DNA of 64,000 nt. Source: Minisyncoccota bacterium (GTDB taxonomy: Bacteria; Patescibacteriota; Minisyncoccia; Phycocordibacterales; UBA2100). The position numbers and the translations under genes are program-made. The DNA lies in NCBI GenBank assembly GCA_022842645.1, contig JALHPE010000001.1:264178-328177 (forward strand). Reading direction: 5' to 3'. Shown in pieces: positions 3,161-62,043 of this stretch (positions are counted from its first letter, which is position 1; each line of letters begins with the position of its first letter). Under the pieces are notes generated by a model that was not told the origin of the DNA, made no database searches, and saw nothing but the letters and a program-made list of their open reading frames with translations.

Positions 3161-3577
3161 TTACTTTGCTGCTTTTGGCTTCTTAGCTCCGTAGAGCGAG
3201 CGGCCGCGGCGGCGTTTTTCAATTCCAGCCGTATCAAGCTTACCGCGGACGATAGTGTAGCGAACGCCAATGTCCTTCACACGACCACCACGCACGAGAA
3301 CCACTGAGTGTTCCTGGAGATTGTGCCCCTCGCCCGGAATATACGCAGTAATTTCAACGCCGTTTGAAAGGCGCACACGAGCAATCTTACGAATAGCTGA
3401 GTTTGGCTTACGAGGGGTCTTTGTGGTGACACGAGTGCAGACGCCACGCTTGAATGGTGAATTGAAATAGGTGGGGCGATTTTCGAGTGTATTGAAACCA
3501 CGACCGAGCGCTCCGGTCTTGGATTTGTAGATGCGCTTACCGCGCCCCTTACGTACAAGCTGATTGATTGTTGACAT
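3161..3577 (-). CDS. rpsL: 30S ribosomal protein S12 (with short basic C-terminal extension)
   Basis: Canonical S12 sequence ([26 protein letters not shown]) plus about 14 extra basic C-terminal residues. Confidence 0.95.
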
Positions 3578-42958: not shown

Positions 42959-43299
42959 GTGTTTTCACGTGAAATGTTAAACTTTGTGTAACTTAAGAAA
43001 CATTATCGTCAAAATACAGGATGTCTCTTATTTTATGGCTTAAAAGCTGAGTTTTAAGTATAAACCCCTAAAAACGGTATATGTCCTATATCCACATATC
43101 CCCAGAGTTGTCCACATATTGGTCATTGTTTTGGACAGAAGTCACAAAAACTCTCTTTACTTCGTTTCCTGGTACCGATACTCGCTATGCTCGTTTCCGT
43201 AGGTGGTCGAAATTAGTCTAATGCGGATACTTCATGTCCGTACGTCGTCGCTCGAAAGCAAAAGAGCCTTTCAGGCTCTTTTGCTTTACTCGCCCCTAG

Positions 43300-43370
43300 T
43301 GCGGATAAGGAGAATCGAACTCCTATTTTCTCGTTGGCAACGAGGCGTTTTACCACTAAACTATATCCGC
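43300..43370 (-). tRNA. tRNA-Gly (anticodon GCC)
   Basis: Manual fold: acceptor GCGGATA/TATCCGC, anticodon loop TTGCCAA, T arm AGGAG-TTCGATT-CTCCT. Followed in minus sense by terminator GAGCC-TGAAA-GGCTC plus TTTT (43261-43282). Confidence 0.85.
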
Positions 43371-43448
43371 TACATGTGCCTCAGGAGACCCCCGATGCAA
43401 CGCAGGGGATTATACAGCAAGAATAGGGGAGGGCAATTTTTATTTATT

Positions 43449-43576
43449 GGTCACGGATAACCCGACTGCCGTCGCAGTCGAGTTTCCGCGACCCCGCCTC
43501 GGCCGTTTCGCCTTTTGGAGAAACATGCCTCCGGCCAGCACCGGATCGAAAAAACCTGCCGCAGGGCAGGTTTTTT
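43449..43576 (+). ncRNA. candidate structured small RNA, copy A of a 3-member paralogous family (own terminator)
   Basis: GGTCACGGATAA head. Hairpin CGACT-GCCGTCGC-AGTCG. Conserved TTTCCGCGACCCCGCCTCGG. Hairpin GTTTCGCC-TTTT-GGAGAAAC. Terminator CCTGCC-GCAG-GGCAGG plus TTTTTT. About 75 percent identical to copies at 61408-61587 and 61588-61717. Confidence 0.55.
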
Positions 43577-43584
43577 CATATCGG

Positions 43585-43656
43585 TGCTCCCGCCAGGACT
43601 CGAACCTAGAATACGACGTCCGAAGCGTCGCGTGATATCCATTTCACCACGGGAGC
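43585..43656 (-). tRNA. tRNA-Arg (anticodon UCG)
   Basis: Manual fold: acceptor GCTCCCG/CGGGAGC, D arm GTGA-AATGGATA-TCAC, anticodon stem CGACG/CGTCG with loop CTTCGGA, T arm CTAGG-TTCGAGT-CCTGG. Confidence 0.85.
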
Positions 43657-46392: not shown

Positions 46393-47310
46393 TTACACTT
46401 TTCGCTTCCCATGGAAATTACGGTGGATCTCGCGGAGGTGTTTGTCGGTGACGTGGGTATAGACCTGGGTTGTTGCAATGTTTGCGTGCCCCAAAAGCGC
46501 CTGTACCGAGCGGAGATCGGCGCCATTTTCTAGAAGATCAGTTGCAAATGAGTGACGAATCGTGTGCGGCGTCACTTTGCGAGTAATACCTGCCTTCACT
46601 GCATATTGCTTCACAATGTATTGCACCGAGCGTGAGGTAAGACGCTTTTTGTCCGCCCCTTTTCCACTGGTGCCGCCGCGACCATATCCAACAAAGAGGG
46701 CCTCACCCATGTCTCCTCGTTTTTTGAGGTAGTCAGCCACCGCACTCTTCGCAGAGGGGGACAGAAACACCACACGCACCTTTTCCCCCTTCCCGCGCAC
46801 CGAAAACTCATCGCGTGAAAGGTCAATATCGGCGTTCAGGGAACAGAGCTCCGAGACGCGCAATCCTGTCGAAAAAAGAAGTTCGAGAATTGCTCTGTCA
46901 CGGAGGGCTTGTAGGGATTCTCCCGAAGGACCCTTCATGAGGCGGCCCAGTTCAGCGCTCGTAATAAGATCGAGGTCGCGCCCACCCACCTTCGCAAGCT
47001 CTATGCGCTCGGGGGAGAGGGATTCAATACCTTGCTTCCGCATGTATTTAAGAAAGGCGCGTAAGGCAATGAGGTAATAGTTCTGGGTCTTTTTCTTCAT
47101 AGAACCCGCCACCCCTGGCTCACGGTTGAGCCAAATGCGGAATTCACGGACGACGGGCTCCGTGAGCTGTGCAGGAGTTTTAACCTTGGTTCTCTCAAGA
47201 AATCGAGAAAGATACCGGTCATAATTTTCAACCGTTTTCACCGAACGCCCTTTTTCGATCTCACAGTATTCGAGAAACTGTGTTTTTAGGCTTTTGAGAT
47301 CTTGTGCCAT
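46393..47310 (-). CDS. xerC: tyrosine recombinase XerC/XerD family
   Basis: N-terminal SAM-like domain. Catalytic R...HxxR...Y pattern (ELLFSTGLRVSE, HTIRHSFAT, QVYTHV). Confidence 0.85.
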   Translation of the reverse strand: MAQDLKSLKTQFLEYCEIEKGRSVKTVENYDRYLSRFLERTKVKTPAQLTEPVVREFRIWLNREPGVAGSMKKKTQNYYLIALRAFLKYMRKQGIESLSPERIELAKVGGRDLDLITSAELGRLMKGPSGESLQALRDRAILELLFSTGLRVSELCSLNADIDLSRDEFSVRGKGEKVRVVFLSPSAKSAVADYLKKRGDMGEALFVGYGRGGTSGKGADKKRLTSRSVQYIVKQYAVKAGITRKVTPHTIRHSFATDLLENGADLRSVQALLGHANIATTQVYTHVTDKHLREIHRNFHGKRKV

Positions 47311-58580: not shown

Positions 58581-60566
58581 ATGATAAAAACATTCGAGGA
58601 GTGGATAGTGAATGTGTCAATTTTGGGTGACGTAGCGTGCTATAGTGCCCGCGTGAACTACCTTTCGGGACTCAACGAGCGGCAAAAGCAGGCCGCCGAA
58701 CATCTCGCAGGACCCCTTCTCATCATTGCTGGCGCGGGAGCTGGAAAAACCAAGACCATTACGCACCGTATCGCACACCTCATTGGAGGAGGGGCGCGCC
58801 CAGACTCTATTCTCGCCGTCACCTTCACCAATAAAGCTGCTGCTGAGATGCGGGCGCGGACACTCACACTCCTTGGCCTTGACCCGGGACTATCTCCCTT
58901 CTCGTCGCGCTCTCCAAGAATGACAACCTTCCATTCGCTCGGAGTACAAATTCTCCGGGAACATGCCGGGACCTTCGGAATACCCACATCTTTCAATATC
59001 TGGGATCGTGACGACAGTAGCCGCCTCATAAAGCGAATTCTTGCAGACCGAGGACTTGAACGCTTCACGCCACGCACGGTTTTGGGACGAATCTCACGTG
59101 AGAAGGGTAAGGCACAAACGGTCGATCATTTTGTGGCACAGACACACTCATTTGAGTCAGAAGAAATAGGAGAGGTGTGGCGTCGCTATGAGGAGGGACT
59201 TCGTAAAGAAGGGGCGCTCGATTTTGACGACCTTCTCCTGCGCACCCTTCTCCTCCTCCAGGAAGAGGCGCATGTGCGGCAAGCGCTGCAGGAGCGGTGG
59301 CATCACCTCACGATTGATGAGTATCAAGATACTAACCGTGTGCAGTATGAAATTGCACGCCTCCTTGCAGGAGAGCGCATGAATCTCTGCGCAGTTGGAG
59401 ATACCGATCAAAATATTTACAGCTGGCGTGGCGCAGATCCTCGTTATACGCTCTCGTTCGAGCGCGATTTTCCTAATGCAAAAGTAGTGCTTCTCGAAGA
59501 AAACTACCGCTCAACACAAACTATCCTTGCCGCCGCAAACAGTGTGATCGCGAAAAATACGAGGCGTTTTGATAAACGTCTTTTTACAGGGAATCCAACC
59601 GGAGAAGCCATCACGCTCTTTGCAGGGGCAAGCGATAGGGAGGAAGCGATGTTTGTAGCACGCACCGCACGCGAACTCCTTGGAAGTGGTGTGCCCGCAT
59701 CGGAGATTGCCGTTCTTTTTCGTGAAAACTTTCAATCGCGCGCACTCGAAGAGGCGTTCATCTGGGCAGGCCTTCCATATCGCGTGCTTGGTGTACGCTT
59801 TTTTGATCGCGCCGAAGTGAAAGATGTGCTCTCCTATGTGCGCGCAGCACTCAATCCTCATGCGTTTACCGATTTTGCGCGCGCCGCGGGCGTGCCATCG
59901 CGCGGCATCGGCAAACAAACCCTTGAAAAAATTGCCCGCGGAGAAGAGTCAGTGCTCAGTGGCGCGGCGCGTATCAAAATAGACTCGTTTCGGTCTCTTC
60001 TTAGGCGCGTACGAGAGGCTCTACTCCAGAAACCAGCATCCGAAGCACTGCGATTAGTGCTCGCCGAAAGTGGGTTGGAACGAATACTTGCCGAAGGAGA
60101 CGAAGAAGCGCGCGAGCGCCTCACAAACATTTTTGAACTCATTTCACACGCAATGCGGTATGACGAACTCTCTCCGCCGCATGGCATAGAGAAACTCTTG
60201 GAAGATGCAGCACTGATGGGTGAGCAAGATGCACTCCAAGATTCGCGCGAGCGCCCGATTTCACTTATGACTGTCCATGCTGCAAAAGGACTCGAGTTTG
60301 ATGCGGTATTTGTTACAGGCCTTGAACAAGGGCTTTTTCCCTCCGAGCGCGCGAACGACGAAGAGCGCGACAATGAGGAAGAACGTCGCCTTTTTTACGT
60401 CGCGCTCACTCGAGCAAAGAAGTTTTTATACCTCACACTTGCTGGCGTGCGTATACGCTATGGCGCTCGTGAACACACCATTCCCTCATCATTCCTTCAT
60501 GACATTGATGAGCGCCTCATTTCTTATGCCGACACTCGTATGTTTGAGCCAACTATAGAACTATGA
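58581..60566 (+). CDS. pcrA: ATP-dependent DNA helicase PcrA/UvrD
   Basis: Helicase motifs I (AGAGAGKT), II (IDEYQDTN), VI (TVHAAKGLEFD). Full-length UvrD-like. Confidence 0.9.
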   Translation: MIKTFEEWIVNVSILGDVACYSARVNYLSGLNERQKQAAEHLAGPLLIIAGAGAGKTKTITHRIAHLIGGGARPDSILAVTFTNKAAAEMRARTLTLLGLDPGLSPFSSRSPRMTTFHSLGVQILREHAGTFGIPTSFNIWDRDDSSRLIKRILADRGLERFTPRTVLGRISREKGKAQTVDHFVAQTHSFESEEIGEVWRRYEEGLRKEGALDFDDLLLRTLLLLQEEAHVRQALQERWHHLTIDEYQDTNRVQYEIARLLAGERMNLCAVGDTDQNIYSWRGADPRYTLSFERDFPNAKVVLLEENYRSTQTILAAANSVIAKNTRRFDKRLFTGNPTGEAITLFAGASDREEAMFVARTARELLGSGVPASEIAVLFRENFQSRALEEAFIWAGLPYRVLGVRFFDRAEVKDVLSYVRAALNPHAFTDFARAAGVPSRGIGKQTLEKIARGEESVLSGAARIKIDSFRSLLRRVREALLQKPASEALRLVLAESGLERILAEGDEEARERLTNIFELISHAMRYDELSPPHGIEKLLEDAALMGEQDALQDSRERPISLMTVHAAKGLEFDAVFVTGLEQGLFPSERANDEERDNEEERRLFYVALTRAKKFLYLTLAGVRIRYGAREHTIPSSFLHDIDERLISYADTRMFEPTIEL

Positions 60567-61342
60567 AGCATGGAGCTCGCCTCGGACAACACTTCCTCAA
60601 CGCCGACTGGGTTGCGCGCGATCTGACAAAAAGCGTGAACGTACGAGACGGCGAGACTATTCTCGAAATTGGTCCCGGCACTGGTGTGTTGACGCGCCAC
60701 CTTCTTAAAACAGGCGCCCCTGTTGTCGCCATTGAAAAAGACGAAGTCCTTGTTGCTCGCCTCCGCGAGACATTCGCAGAGGAAATCGCACAAGATACAC
60801 TCTCGCTCGTAGAAGGTGATGTGCGTGATGCTGCTCCAGAAAAACTGTTGCCCTCTAATTCGTATGTACTCGCCGCGAATATCCCGTACTACATTACGGG
60901 GGAAATCATTCGCCTCTTTCTCACCGCAAAAAAGCAACCGCGCGCGGCCGCACTTCTCATACAAAAAGAGGTTGCGGAACGCATCGTTGCCCGTGACGCG
61001 AAAGAAAGTATTCTTTCGCTCTCGGTAAAAGCCTATGGAACACCAAAAATAATCGCAAAAGTTCCTGCGGGATGTTTTAATCCGCCACCATCGGTAGACT
61101 CCGCAATCATTCTTATAGAGAACATTTCAAGAAACTTTTTTAGCACCACGAGCGAAGAGAATTTTTTTAAAGTGGTAAAAGCAGGATTTGCCTCAAAGCG
61201 TAAAATGCTGGCGGGGAACTTGAAAAAAATGTTTCCTGATGCAGCGGGAATGCTGCGAAGTCTTGGATTAGATGAGAAAGTGCGAGCCGAAGACGTGGCA
61301 CTTAAGGAGTGGAGGAGTATTGTGGAGAAACTCGAGTCTTGA
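60563..61342 (+). CDS. rsmA: 16S rRNA (adenine1518/1519-N6)-dimethyltransferase
   Basis: GQHFL, ILEIGPGTGVLT SAM motif, ANIPYYI motif. Confidence 0.9.
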   Translation: MKHGARLGQHFLNADWVARDLTKSVNVRDGETILEIGPGTGVLTRHLLKTGAPVVAIEKDEVLVARLRETFAEEIAQDTLSLVEGDVRDAAPEKLLPSNSYVLAANIPYYITGEIIRLFLTAKKQPRAAALLIQKEVAERIVARDAKESILSLSVKAYGTPKIIAKVPAGCFNPPPSVDSAIILIENISRNFFSTTSEENFFKVVKAGFASKRKMLAGNLKKMFPDAAGMLRSLGLDEKVRAEDVALKEWRSIVEKLES

Positions 61343-61350
61343 GAATATTG

Positions 61351-61587
61351 GCTCGGTCACAAGTCGTTTTGTTGCCCCGGGTCGGCAGACGACGCAGAAA
61401 AAGTTCGCGGTCACACATAATTTCCTGCTGGAAATTTGCGCGACCCCGCCTCAGCGCCAAGCGCTTCCGGCCTTGCGAAGCCACGCTTCGCTCGCTTCTC
61501 ACCCGGCTCGCCGTTTCGCCTACTGGCGAAACATGCCCGCGACCGAGTTCCCAAGAAAAAATCAGTGCTCAAGCACTGATTTTTATT
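61351..61587 (+). ncRNA. candidate structured small RNA, copy B1 (partial 5' head duplication, about 55-nt internal insertion, own terminator)
   Basis: GCTCGGTCACAAG head. Second head at 61408 CGGTCACACATAA. Hairpin AATTTCC-TGCT-GGAAATT. Conserved TTTGCGCGACCCCGCCTCAG. Hairpin GTTTCGCC-TACT-GGCGAAAC. Terminator TCAGTGC-TCAA-GCACTGA plus TTTTT. Confidence 0.55.
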
Positions 61588-61717
61588 GCTCGGTCACAGA
61601 TAATTCTTTTGCCGTCGCAAAAGAATTTCCGCGACCCCGGCTCGCGGTTTTGCCTTCTGGCAAAACATCGCTCCGCCCGTCGAGTCTGATGAAAAAGAGT
61701 GCGCAGGCACTCTTTTT
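61588..61717 (+). ncRNA. candidate structured small RNA, copy B2 (tandem to B1, own terminator)
   Basis: GCTCGGTCACAGATAA head. Hairpin AATTCTTTT-GCCGTCGC-AAAAGAATT. Conserved TTTCCGCGACCCCGGCTCG. Hairpin GTTTTGCC-TTCT-GGCAAAAC (compensatory change relative to A and B1). Terminator AGAGTGC-GCAG-GCACTCT plus TTTTT. Confidence 0.55.
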
Positions 61718-62043
61718 CACTGACTCGACCCCATCATGTCGATGTTGACGCCAGAATCGACTTGGATTGGCGCAAGAGACCAGACGCAATAATAGGGAGC
61801 ACTTGCAAGCCCGAGAAGCCACTGTCCTGTGCGTCGCGGTGGACCAAACTGATAGGTGCGTGTTGCGGGGGTCCAGATAAACGAACCGCCGCGCGGTCCC
61901 GAAAGATATACCTGAATCGCATTGTTGTAACAGGGGCGCACCATAGTGATTTGTCCTCCAAAGGGAAACGCGTAGGTTATGTTGGGAAGCGCGAGCGCAA
62001 AAAGAAGTCCCACTACGAGAAAACGCATGTGTACAGTGTACAA
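61717..62043 (-). CDS. hypothetical small secreted protein (108 aa)
   Basis: Signal peptide MRFLVVGLLFALALPNITYA. ORF only. Confidence 0.45.
   Translation of the reverse strand: MYTVHMRFLVVGLLFALALPNITYAFPFGGQITMVRPCYNNAIQVYLSGPRGGSFIWTPATRTYQFGPPRRTGQWLLGLASAPYYCVWSLAPIQVDSGVNIDMMGSSQ

What the first reader, a model, noticed from the sequence alone, without database searches (positions are those of the whole stretch)
43449..43576. Third paralog of the same RNA-like element embedded in a tRNA cluster, with a bidirectional terminator
Copy A sits between tRNA-Gly(GCC) and tRNA-Arg(UCG), both on the opposite strand. It ends in a CCTGCC-GCAG-GGCAGG hairpin flanked by an A-run and a T-run, so the hairpin can terminate both the element on the plus strand and tRNA-Arg on the minus strand. 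A TTG-initiated ORF called here (43447-43635) runs through the element and the tRNA and is implausible. Location next to tRNA genes is typical of independently transcribed small RNAs and of integration hotspots. The TATTTATTGG upstream of the head resembles the TATTTTATTGCT / GAATATTGGCT preceding the other two copies, which may be a shared -10-like element.
Basis: seen in the sequence. Interest (0 to 1): 0.65.

Follow-up and report, generated by a model that had tools for sequence, protein, structure and literature searches.

The report
Structured insertion element behind tRNA genes
The flagged segment is one copy of a widespread, apparently undescribed, ~90-nt structured element of Patescibacteria (CPR bacteria) that sits immediately after tRNA genes on the tRNA strand, flanked by copies of the tRNA's own 3' end, and behaves like a small mobile insertion, not a plus-strand small-RNA gene.

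Summary

The interpretation needs turning round.
- **Family.** It occurs in hundreds of Patescibacteria, and a few Elusimicrobia, genomes and metagenome contigs. No Rfam family matches.
- **Strand.** Wobble pairs show the folded strand is the minus (tRNA-sense) strand. One G.U pair is kept in 114 of 116 copies, and another pair shows G.U 55 times against 2 for the other strand.
- **Association.** About 80% of copies lie within 300 nt downstream of a same-strand tRNA gene.
- **Flanks.** The core's 3' end (GUGACC) joins a repeat of the tRNA 3' end, starting at T-loop position 57 or at the tRNA 3' end. An inverted copy of that sequence abuts the core's 5' side.
- **Turnover.** Close relatives of this genome have the same tRNA-Arg/tRNA-Gly site empty, filled or decayed. 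One contig carries 3.5 identical tandem units. One copy is an in-frame insert in uvrC.
- **Promoter.** The only promoter-like site nearby is the minus-strand tRNA-Gly promoter.

Best reading: a non-autonomous, strand-specific structured insertion element. The mechanism is unresolved.

The parts
43583..43656 (-). tRNA-Arg(tcg), the upstream host tRNA in tRNA sense. Its last 5-6 nt (GGTGCT on +) form the outer end of the palindrome.
   Evidence: ARAGORN; Rfam tRNA 59.8 bits; inverted repeat 43537-43588 seen by blastn.
43537..43588 (-). Palindrome X-loop-X*: tRNA end plus trailer (43577-43588), A-run, CCTGCC-GCAG-GGCAGG, T-run (43549-43576), then the inverted copy (43537-43548). The centre is a terminator-like hairpin readable in both directions.
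   Evidence: Sequence; fold; self-match 118-169 vs 43588-43537. The inverted copy X* ends 1 nt before helix P2 in 39 of the 40 tRNA-linked copies that carry an exact complement of 8 nt or more (64 copies examined).
43449..43535 (-). Core of copy A (87 nt), in tRNA sense: P2 5' strand GCC plus GGA (43529-43535), P3 hairpin (43501-43528), GA plus P2 3' strand (43496-43500), linker GG (43494-43495), and P1 hairpin GGUCGC...GUGACC with a bulged A and a conserved G.U (43449-43493).
   Evidence: Covariance-model hit 43445-43502 (-) at 58 bits, against 9.6 bits on +. P1 covariation. P2 covariation. Alignment.
43428..43448 (-). Degenerate second copy of the trailer. In tRNA sense it reads AAUAAAUAAAAAUUGCCCUCC, against GAUAUGAAAAAACCUGCCCUGC after tRNA-Arg. 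It overlaps the -35 box of the next promoter.
   Evidence: Direct comparison. The same relation holds in L122 and L017. Exact repeats occur in many other loci.
43409..43436 (-). Sigma-70-like promoter of tRNA-Gly (TTGCCC-16-TATAAT). It is present directly after tRNA-Arg in the empty sites of relatives.
   Evidence: 10/12 match; the empty-site sequences L123 and L126.
43299..43370 (-). tRNA-Gly(gcc), the next gene downstream in tRNA sense.
61592..61729 (-). Copy C: core 61592-61677 (long-P3 type) preceded, in tRNA sense, by a long palindrome at 61679-61729 with an A-run/T-run hairpin.
   Evidence: Covariance-model hit 61588-61645 (-) at 64 bits; sequence; fold.
61409..61587 (-). Copy B: core 61409-61471 (short-P3 type) with a 5' extension in tRNA sense, GUGA-P4-GCAAG (61472-61503). 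This is followed by a partial second P2/P3 module (61504-61552) and an A-run/T-run hairpin (61556-61584).
   Evidence: Covariance-model hit 61405-61454 (-) at 65 bits; sequence. The same extension occurs in L004, L005, L006, L040, L066, L073 and L109.
61355..61408 (-). Fragment of a further unit. It ends in ...ACGACUUGUGACC in tRNA sense, so only the 3' half of P1 is recognisable.
   Evidence: Sequence; not found by the model.

Best explanation
Copy A is one unit of a family of small (about 130-200 nt per unit), non-coding, strand-specific structured insertion elements of Patescibacteria.

**Shown**
- The conserved core is 62-99 nt and is a three-helix fold on the tRNA-sense strand: 5'-G-N'-C-R-N-A-[P3 hairpin]-G-A-G-N-C-GG-[P1: GGUCGC..AAA..loop..UU(A)U..GUGACC]-3'.
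- The core lies just downstream of a tRNA gene.
- Its 3' end (GUGACC) is joined to a second copy (X) of the sequence that follows a fixed point of the tRNA gene. That point is T-loop 56|57 in most copies and the tRNA 3' end in the rest.
- Its 5' side is joined, with a 1-nt spacer, to an inverted copy (X*) of the same sequence. X* reaches 3-5 nt further into the tRNA.
- The unit X-hairpin-X*-core can be absent, present, decayed or tandemly amplified at the DNA level.

**Inferred**
- The unit moves, or moved, as DNA by a site-specific, single-strand-dependent reaction. A trans-acting enzyme would recognise the folded core, and X* would pair with X to position the joint. Because the unit carries its own copy of the tRNA 3' end, the tRNA gene stays intact with or without the element.
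- In this window the palindrome doubles as the terminator of tRNA-Arg, and the element separates it from the tRNA-Gly promoter.
For: **Family and structure**
- More than 240 loci, almost all Patescibacteria.
- P1 is 98.2% paired, with 8 pairs changed on both sides and 0/500 shuffles reaching the observed value.
- P2 covaries through all four Watson-Crick types in 112/125 copies, against 8.5% for the control.

**Strand**
- G.U against A.C asymmetry.
- The model scores 58-65 bits on the minus strand against 10-15 on the plus strand.

**tRNA linkage**
- In 75/75 cases the neighbouring tRNA is on the folded strand.
- In the metagenome set, 78 of 96 copies have a same-strand tRNA within 300 nt upstream, against 1 opposite.
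- The repeat starts 17-20 nt before the tRNA 3' end in 33/37 and 38/44 loci.
- X* ends 1 nt before P2 in 39/40 copies.

**Turnover**
- Syntenic spacers are 66 and 74 nt (empty), 195 and 212 nt (filled) and 233 nt (decayed).
- L148 has three identical 134-nt tandem units plus a partial fourth that ends inside the core.
- L006 has an in-frame insertion of about 30 aa in uvrC that homologs lack.

**Other**
- No ORF fits within a unit.
- No plus-strand promoter.
- No Rfam family.
Against: - No enzyme has been identified and no circular or excised form has been seen.
- Copies within one genome are old and divergent: A and C are 77.6% identical over the 98 nt that align.
- The orthologous copies in the window and in L122 differ by two compensatory double substitutions in P1. 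So the fold is kept in place after insertion, which suits a resident functional RNA as well as a mobile element.
- Transcription status is unknown. In 24 of 80 tRNA-linked copies no T-run separates the tRNA from the core, so co-transcription with the tRNA is possible.
- The closing helix X*/X is only weakly above control in my crude test (6.2 against 4.6 pairs).
- How X and X* become matched to each different tRNA is not explained.
Confidence: 0.55

Rival explanations
1. A resident non-coding RNA of tRNA operons, on the tRNA-sense strand. It would be read through or co-transcribed with the upstream tRNA. The helix formed by X* and X copies the tRNA acceptor/T-arm duplex, so tRNA-processing enzymes (RNase P, RNase Z, CCA-adding enzyme) could release or mark the RNA. 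The core would bind a protein or act in tRNA metabolism. The match to the neighbouring tRNA would be kept by gene conversion.
For: - The folded strand is the tRNA strand.
- 17 of 80 copies lie between two same-strand tRNAs, and 24 of 80 have no T-run before the core.
- Orthologous copies show compensatory changes.
- A G.U pair, a bulged A and GA/GA-type loop bases are strictly conserved, as in protein-binding RNAs.
Against: - Close relatives do without it at the same site, and copies decay.
- Identical tandem arrays exist.
- Copies occur away from tRNAs, after protein genes and inside uvrC.
- In copy A a strong hairpin plus U-run precedes the core in tRNA sense, and a promoter follows it.
- The repeats extend into non-functional trailer sequence, up to 33 nt and about 70 nt in L148.
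Confidence: 0.22
2. An RNA-level mobile or replicating agent. This could be a small circular or retro-transposed RNA, with unit X-hairpin-X*-core, whose DNA copies are integrated as greater-than-unit-length concatemers next to tRNA genes. The joints would form at RNA ends made by tRNA processing: the RNase Z site and a T-loop cut.
For: - Terminal redundancy of the unit and perfect tandem multimers.
- Joints lie exactly at the tRNA 3' end or in the T loop.
- In a circle, X and X* would pair into one rod closed by the core (reading).
Against: - No reverse transcriptase, ribozyme or replicase signature was found (Rfam).
- Nothing was found in the viral contigs.
- Within-genome copies are divergent, not recent bursts.
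- At 130-200 nt it is smaller than any known autonomous circular RNA (own knowledge).
Confidence: 0.1
3. One reading: an independently transcribed trans-acting small RNA on the plus strand. It would start at GGUCAC and end at the bidirectional terminator.
For: - Each of the three window copies is followed on the plus strand by a hairpin with a T-run.
- The plus-strand fold is also very stable (z about -8), as it must be for any hairpin-rich DNA.
Against: - The wobble asymmetry points to the other strand.
- There is no plus-strand promoter.
- The upstream bases are locus-specific copies of tRNA 3' ends, not a conserved -10 box.
- Many copies have no T-run after the hairpin.
- The uvrC copy is sense to the gene on the other strand.
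Confidence: 0.06

Closest known systems
Integrative elements that target tRNA genes at the T-loop or 3'-end sublocation (own knowledge: Williams 2002, Nucleic Acids Res; not checked with the paper tools)
   Same: - A direct repeat of the tRNA 3' part starts in the T loop or at the extreme 3' end.
- The tRNA gene stays intact because the insert supplies a replacement 3' end.
- Related genomes differ in presence or absence.
   Different: - The whole insert is 130-200 nt with no integrase or any other gene.
- It carries a conserved three-helix fold with strand-specific wobble pairs.
- It has an inverted copy of the repeat abutting that fold.
- It also occurs as identical tandem units.
REP/REPIN elements mobilised by RAYT (HUH Y1) transposases, and IS200/IS605-type single-strand elements
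   Same: - Short, non-coding and extragenic, often just after genes or at terminators.
- Hairpins have a conserved foot, a mismatch or bulge, and a clear strand asymmetry, as expected for recognition of one folded strand.
   Different: - The core is a branched 62-99-nt fold, not a 20-40-nt palindrome.
- It is strongly tied to tRNA 3' ends.
- It is flanked by long locus-specific repeats, whereas IS200/IS605 insertion makes no duplication.
- No RAYT or TnpA was looked for or found.
Rickettsia palindromic elements and other bacterial MITEs (Correia/NEMIS, ERIC, RUP)
   Same: - Small non-autonomous repeats that fold as RNA and are co-transcribed with neighbours.
- They can sit in frame inside protein genes (uvrC copy) or in RNA-gene regions (5S-like copy).
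   Different: - There are no family-wide terminal inverted repeats and no short fixed target duplication.
- The inverted and direct repeats here are copies of the local tRNA sequence.
- The conserved part is internal.
Group IIC introns and rolling-circle elements (IS91, Helitron-like). Both comparisons rest on my own knowledge.
   Same: - Insertion lies just after a stem-loop or terminator.
- A hairpin sits at the element's 3' end directly before the joint.
- The 3' hairpin has a bulged A 9 nt from the end, reminiscent of intron domain VI.
- The class 1 joint follows GTTC, the IS91 target tetranucleotide.
- Tandem multimers occur.
   Different: - There is no domain V/VI match in Rfam.
- The size is far too small for a group II intron.
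- Class 2 joints do not follow GTTC.
- No transposase or reverse transcriptase was identified.

Membership tests
Any Rfam 15 family | Covariance-model score at or above the family's gathering threshold | tested here: not met
   Only the four tRNAs pass in the window. The best sub-threshold hits on 43380-43600 are terminator-like fragments (30 bits against a gathering score of 54). Nothing was found at the element in 11 other loci.
   The consensus scan finds no plus-strand site before 43449. The only site is on the minus strand at 43436->43409. This is a consensus scan only, and CPR promoters may differ.
   On the plus strand, A.C mismatches outnumber G.U 58 to 2 and 55 to 2. The conserved pair is A.C on plus and G.U on minus in 114/116 copies.
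Intrinsic (bidirectional) terminator | G+C-rich hairpin followed by a U-run, readable on both strands | tested here: met
   Read directly at 43549-43576: AAAAAA-CCTGCC-GCAG-GGCAGG-TTTTTT. The consensus scan does not list it, presumably because the A-run pairs with the T-run and extends the stem. Function was not tested.
tRNA-gene integrative element (T-loop or 3'-end sublocation) | Direct repeat of the tRNA 3' part flanking the insert | tested here: met
   The repeat starts 17-20 nt before the tRNA 3' end in 33/37 and 38/44 loci, and at 0-5 nt in the others. In the window copy the repeat is degenerate.
tRNA-gene integrative element (T-loop or 3'-end sublocation) | Element encodes its integrase and cargo | tested here: not met
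   Units are 130-200 nt, and 134 nt in L148. In the window only a spurious 62-aa ORF overlaps.
MITE | Family-wide terminal inverted repeats and a short fixed target-site duplication | tested here: not met
   Flanks differ from locus to locus and match the local tRNA. The repeat length runs from 12 to about 70 nt and can include part of the core.
REP/REPIN | Short extragenic palindrome with a conserved foot, linked to a RAYT gene | tested here: inconclusive
   The conserved hairpin foot GGUCGC/GUGACC and the extragenic position are present. The unit is a branched fold, and no RAYT was searched for.
Group II intron (class C) | Domain V and VI consensus; 5' GUGYG | tested here: not met
   There is no Intron_gpII hit even at E<=10. 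P2 is not the 34-nt domain V. Only the extended variants begin with GUGAG.
IS200/IS605-type single-strand element | Strand-specific subterminal hairpins; insertion without duplication; Y1 transposase | tested here: inconclusive
   A strand-specific hairpin at the 3' end is present. The flanking repeats argue against this family. The transposase was not tested.
tRNA or tRNA-like gene | Cloverleaf detected by ARAGORN or the Rfam tRNA model | tested here: not met
   Nothing is called at 43449-43576 or at the paralogs.

The most novel reading that the evidence does not exclude
The element is a new kind of guide-assisted, single-strand site-specific recombination unit. The conserved three-helix core would hold two joints at fixed geometry: GUGACC| at the foot of P1, and the tRNA T-loop or 3'-end site held in the X/X* duplex 3-5 bp from P2. 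Cutting and rejoining there would excise a roughly 130-200-nt circle and leave an intact tRNA gene, because the unit carries a spare tRNA 3' end. X* would act as a programmable target-recognition segment. The catalyst would be an unidentified CPR enzyme, or conceivably the fold itself.
Probability: 0.18. Interest if true: 0.88.

Novelty: new variant of a known kind. Interest (0 to 1): 0.72.

Why it matters
- **Annotation.** Patescibacteria have tiny genomes with few known mobile elements and few described non-coding RNAs. A conserved structured element at a sizeable share of tRNA loci across the phylum is currently invisible to Rfam-based annotation. Gene callers will go on producing spurious ORFs over it, as in this window.
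- **Mechanism.** The architecture is not what known MITEs, REPs or integrative elements look like: the core sits at the apex of a locus-specific inverted repeat, the joints lie at T-loop 56|57 or the tRNA 3' end, the unit has terminal redundancy, and one G.U pair is strictly kept. It points to an unknown single-strand recognition or recombination mechanism that could be sequence-programmable.
- **Practical use.** The strict strand, position and joint rules make the element easy to annotate. It could also serve as a marker of recent genome dynamics in uncultivated CPR lineages.

Tried and rejected
- **Known RNA family.** Rfam at gathering and at E<=10 gave nothing, on the window and on 11 loci.
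- **Phage origin.** A pattern scan of the viral contigs found nothing.
- **Self-cleaving ribozyme.** The precise 5' boundary at GGUCAC first suggested an HDV-like or hatchet ribozyme. The helix order does not fit (no P2/P1.1 arrangement) and Rfam is silent.
- **K-turn in P2.** The loop is 3x2 (R-N-A / G-A), not a 3-nt bulge followed by tandem G.A pairs.
- **dif/Xer site.** GGTCACGCATAA resembles the XerC arm GGTGCGCATAA (recalled from own knowledge). Two of those positions vary across the family, the arms are 15-27 nt apart, and the joint lies at the outer end of the arm.
- **Element inside a 5S gene (L003, L011).** Rfam shows an intact 5S upstream. The element sits in a second, divergent partial 5S-like copy.
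- **Target-site duplication as the origin of the direct repeat.** L148 shows the repeat can include the hairpin, X* and 15 nt of the core, so it is terminal redundancy of the unit.
- **Test of the closing helix X*/X.** It scored only weakly above control, and my boundary calls were noisy.
- **Wobble counts in P3.** Uninformative, because the long P3 has an internal asymmetric loop that my simple pairing misregisters.
- **Other ORF-spanning copies (L040, L053, L068, L086).** These are upstream of genes or in spurious frames. Only L006 is a convincing in-gene copy, and perhaps L073.
- **Literature.** Four full-text searches and one paper found no description of the element.

Full report
**1. Observation**

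The window is a housekeeping stretch of a Patescibacteria genome. The best hits to its CCA-adding enzyme are Kaiserbacteria and Parcubacteria.

- ARAGORN and Rfam place tRNA-Gly(gcc) at 43299-43370 and tRNA-Arg(tcg) at 43583-43656, both on the minus strand.
- Between them lies GGTCAC...(43449), ending in AAAAAA-CCTGCC-GCAG-GGCAGG-TTTTTT (43549-43576).
- The segment folds at -68.3 kcal/mol, z = -8.
- The TTG ORF 43447..43635 exists and is spurious.
- blastn, nhmmer and a covariance model find two paralogs (cores 61409-61471 and 61592-61677) and no others in the window. A fragment lies at 61355-61408.
- No Rfam family matches.

**2. A large family**

A degenerate pattern taken from the three paralogs hit more than 120 loci in species-representative genomes. 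These are overwhelmingly Saccharibacteria, Paceibacteria, Kaiser-, Adler- and Nomurabacteria and other Patescibacteria, plus several Elusimicrobia. A pattern with the key positions freed hit more than 120 metagenome contigs. A similar pattern found nothing in the viral contigs.

**3. Which strand folds**

Helix P1 reads GGUCAC/GCGACC on the plus strand, with an A.C mismatch. On the minus strand it reads GGUCGC/GUGACC, a perfect helix with one G.U pair.

- When that position was left free in the metagenome scan, 114 of 116 distinct copies kept it.
- The adjacent pair is G-C 41, A.C 55, A-T 11 and G.T 2 in plus-strand letters. That is 55 wobbles for the minus strand against 2 for the plus strand. 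The genome set gave 58 against 2.
- In minus-strand sense P1 is 98.2% paired. Eight pairs change on both sides, with 123 compensatory cells, and 0 of 500 shuffles reach this.
- Divergent copies found by nhmmer keep the pairing in that sense, for example GGUCGC/GUGGCC.

**4. The core**

In tRNA sense the core reads:

5'-G-N'-C-R-N-A-[P3 hairpin, 10-12 or 24-28 nt]-G-A-G-N-C-GG-[P1 hairpin, with AAA/UU(A)U above the GGUCGC/GUGACC foot]-3'

It is 62-99 nt long.

- P2 (G-N'-C with G-N-C) covaries through C-G 52, G-C 30, A-U 23 and U-A 7. It is found in 112 of 125 copies, against 8.5% for non-complementary controls.
- The pair closing P3 also covaries.
- A subset, including window copy B and all three Elusimicrobia copies that were read (L005, L073, L109), carries a 5' extension, GUGA-P4-GCAAG, with a covarying P4.

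**5. Link to tRNA genes**

- In the genome set, all 75 neighbouring tRNAs are on the folded strand.
- In the metagenome set, 78 of 96 copies have a same-strand tRNA within 300 nt upstream, against 1 on the other strand. Seventeen isotypes are represented.
- The 12 nt after GUGACC repeat, with at most 2 mismatches, a sequence that starts 17-20 nt before the tRNA 3' end. The joint is always ...GGUUC|GAAUCC..., T-loop 56|57. This holds in 33 of 37 and 38 of 44 loci. In most of the rest the repeat starts at the tRNA 3' end.
- Repeats run 12-33 nt, often into the trailer.
- In 39 of the 40 copies that carry an exact complement of at least 8 nt (64 tRNA-linked copies examined), this inverted copy (X*) of the same tRNA sequence ends exactly 1 nt before P2. 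It reaches 3-5 nt further into the tRNA than the direct repeat does.
- The general layout is tRNA(...X)-hairpin-X*-core-X.
- Copy A is a 3'-end-type unit. X* (43537-43548) pairs back to the trailer and to the last bases of tRNA-Arg, with the A-run/T-run hairpin at the centre. A degenerate X follows the core at 43448-43428.

**6. Turnover**

The neighbourhood UPF0102(-) ... tRNA-Gly(-) tRNA-Arg(-) CCA enzyme(+) is conserved in relatives. Identity below is CCA-enzyme amino-acid identity to the window.

| Source | Identity | Arg-to-Gly spacer | State |
|---|---|---|---|
| Window | - | 212 nt | element |
| L122 | 85% | 195 nt | element, P2 damaged |
| L124 | 79% | 233 nt | decayed pieces |
| L123 | 84% | 66 nt | empty |
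| L126 | 77% | 74 nt | empty |

- In the empty sites tRNA-Arg is followed at once by TTGCCC-N-TGTATAAT. This is the tRNA-Gly promoter, which the scan also finds in the window on the minus strand (43436->43409).
- No plus-strand promoter is found.
- L148 carries three identical 134-nt units after tRNA-Arg(tct), plus a partial fourth that stops 15 nt into the core. This shows recent DNA-level amplification. It also shows that the flanking repeat is terminal redundancy of the unit, not a classical target duplication.
- In L006 an extended-type copy is an in-frame, stop-free insertion of about 30 aa in uvrC, in the sense of the folded strand. Homologs lack it.
- In L003 and L011 a copy splits a second, partial 5S-like sequence downstream of an intact 5S gene.

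**7. Interpretation**

The data fit a non-autonomous, strand-specific structured insertion element that carries a replacement copy of the tRNA 3' end. Insertion or loss therefore leaves the tRNA gene intact. This is the logic of tRNA-targeting integrative elements, shrunk to 130-200 nt and built round a conserved fold.

The strict G.U pair, the bulged A, the fixed joints and X* abutting the core suggest that one folded strand is recognised by a trans-acting enzyme. They also suggest that X* helps position the joint. That part is inference.

Against a purely selfish reading:
- Copies within a genome are old and divergent.
- The orthologous copies in the window and L122 differ by two compensatory double substitutions in P1, so the fold is maintained in place.
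- A third of tRNA-linked copies have no T-run between tRNA and core, so a tRNA-sense RNA role remains a serious rival.

I give about 0.55 to the insertion-element reading and 0.22 to a resident tRNA-operon RNA. An RNA-level mobile agent gets 0.10, the plus-strand sRNA 0.06, and the remainder is left open.

**8. Comparison and novelty**

The closest known kinds are tRNA-targeting integrative elements, REP/REPIN and IS200/IS605-type single-strand elements, and Rickettsia palindromic elements and other MITEs. Group IIC and rolling-circle elements are more distant. Each shares some features and fails at least one defining feature (see the membership table).

Four literature searches found no description. 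I rate it a new variant of a known kind, with a real chance that the mechanism is new.

Noticed in passing
L006:2915-4249 (+), element near 3462-3560: A copy of the extended type is an in-frame, stop-free insertion of about 30 aa (VRRGRGPVARPERGGVRRGRANLQQQIMRD) in the Cys-rich linker of UvrC, between KCTPCE and QQRYCRPCF. Close homologs lack it. A Uhrbacteria UvrC (P0202) has a different long insert at the same place that also begins with VRRG.
   Followed up: partly
L148:9440-10120 (metagenome contig Ga0210057_1003498): tRNA-Arg(tct) is followed by three 100% identical 134-nt tandem units of the element, plus a partial fourth unit that breaks off 15 nt into the core.
   Followed up: partly
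L003:838-1100 and L011:3600-3892: Downstream of an intact 5S rRNA gene lies a second, divergent partial 5S-like sequence. It is split at ...GGTCACACCC|...|CTCATTCCGAAC by a copy of the element, whose folded strand is antisense to the 5S. The same arrangement occurs in two different Patescibacteria MAGs.
   Followed up: partly
L003:1-761: The 23S rRNA 3' region carries a 416-nt insertion near model position 2620. It was not examined further.
   Followed up: no
window 43409-43436 (-): A near-consensus promoter, TTGCCC-16-TATAAT, lies directly upstream of tRNA-Gly(gcc). It is conserved in relatives (TTGCCC...TGTATAAT). TTGCCC also follows the element in the unrelated locus L017.
   Followed up: partly
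window 46393-47310 (-): A tyrosine recombinase gene (Phage_integrase plus SAM-like N-terminal domain, 305 aa) lies 3 kb from copy A. It is in the same position in L122, which has the element. L123, whose site is empty, has a different gene there. This may be the housekeeping Xer, and no link is shown.
   Followed up: no
window 43583-43656 vs L123/L126: The tRNA-Arg(tcg) alleles differ in the T-stem and acceptor 3' half. The sequence is ...CCTGGCGGGAGCAC where the spacer is filled or decayed, and ...CCCTCCGGGCGCA where it is empty. So presence of the element tracks the tRNA allele.
   Followed up: no
L058:~1210-1290: ARAGORN calls a tRNA with anticodon UUA (labelled tRNA-Stop) next to a copy of the element in a Saccharibacteria MAG. 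It may be a suppressor-type or miscalled tRNA.
   Followed up: no
window 61355-61729: Copies B and C, a partial P2/P3 module and a P1 fragment form a tandem cluster. It lies in the convergent gap between rsmA/ksgA (60563-61342, +) and a 108-aa ORF (61717-62043, -), with no tRNA nearby.
   Followed up: partly
L124:1145-1379: The syntenic spacer of a 79%-identity relative holds two decayed pieces of the element. P2/P3 and the CGAGCGACGGCGAG apical motif are recognisable, but P1 is broken.
   Followed up: partly
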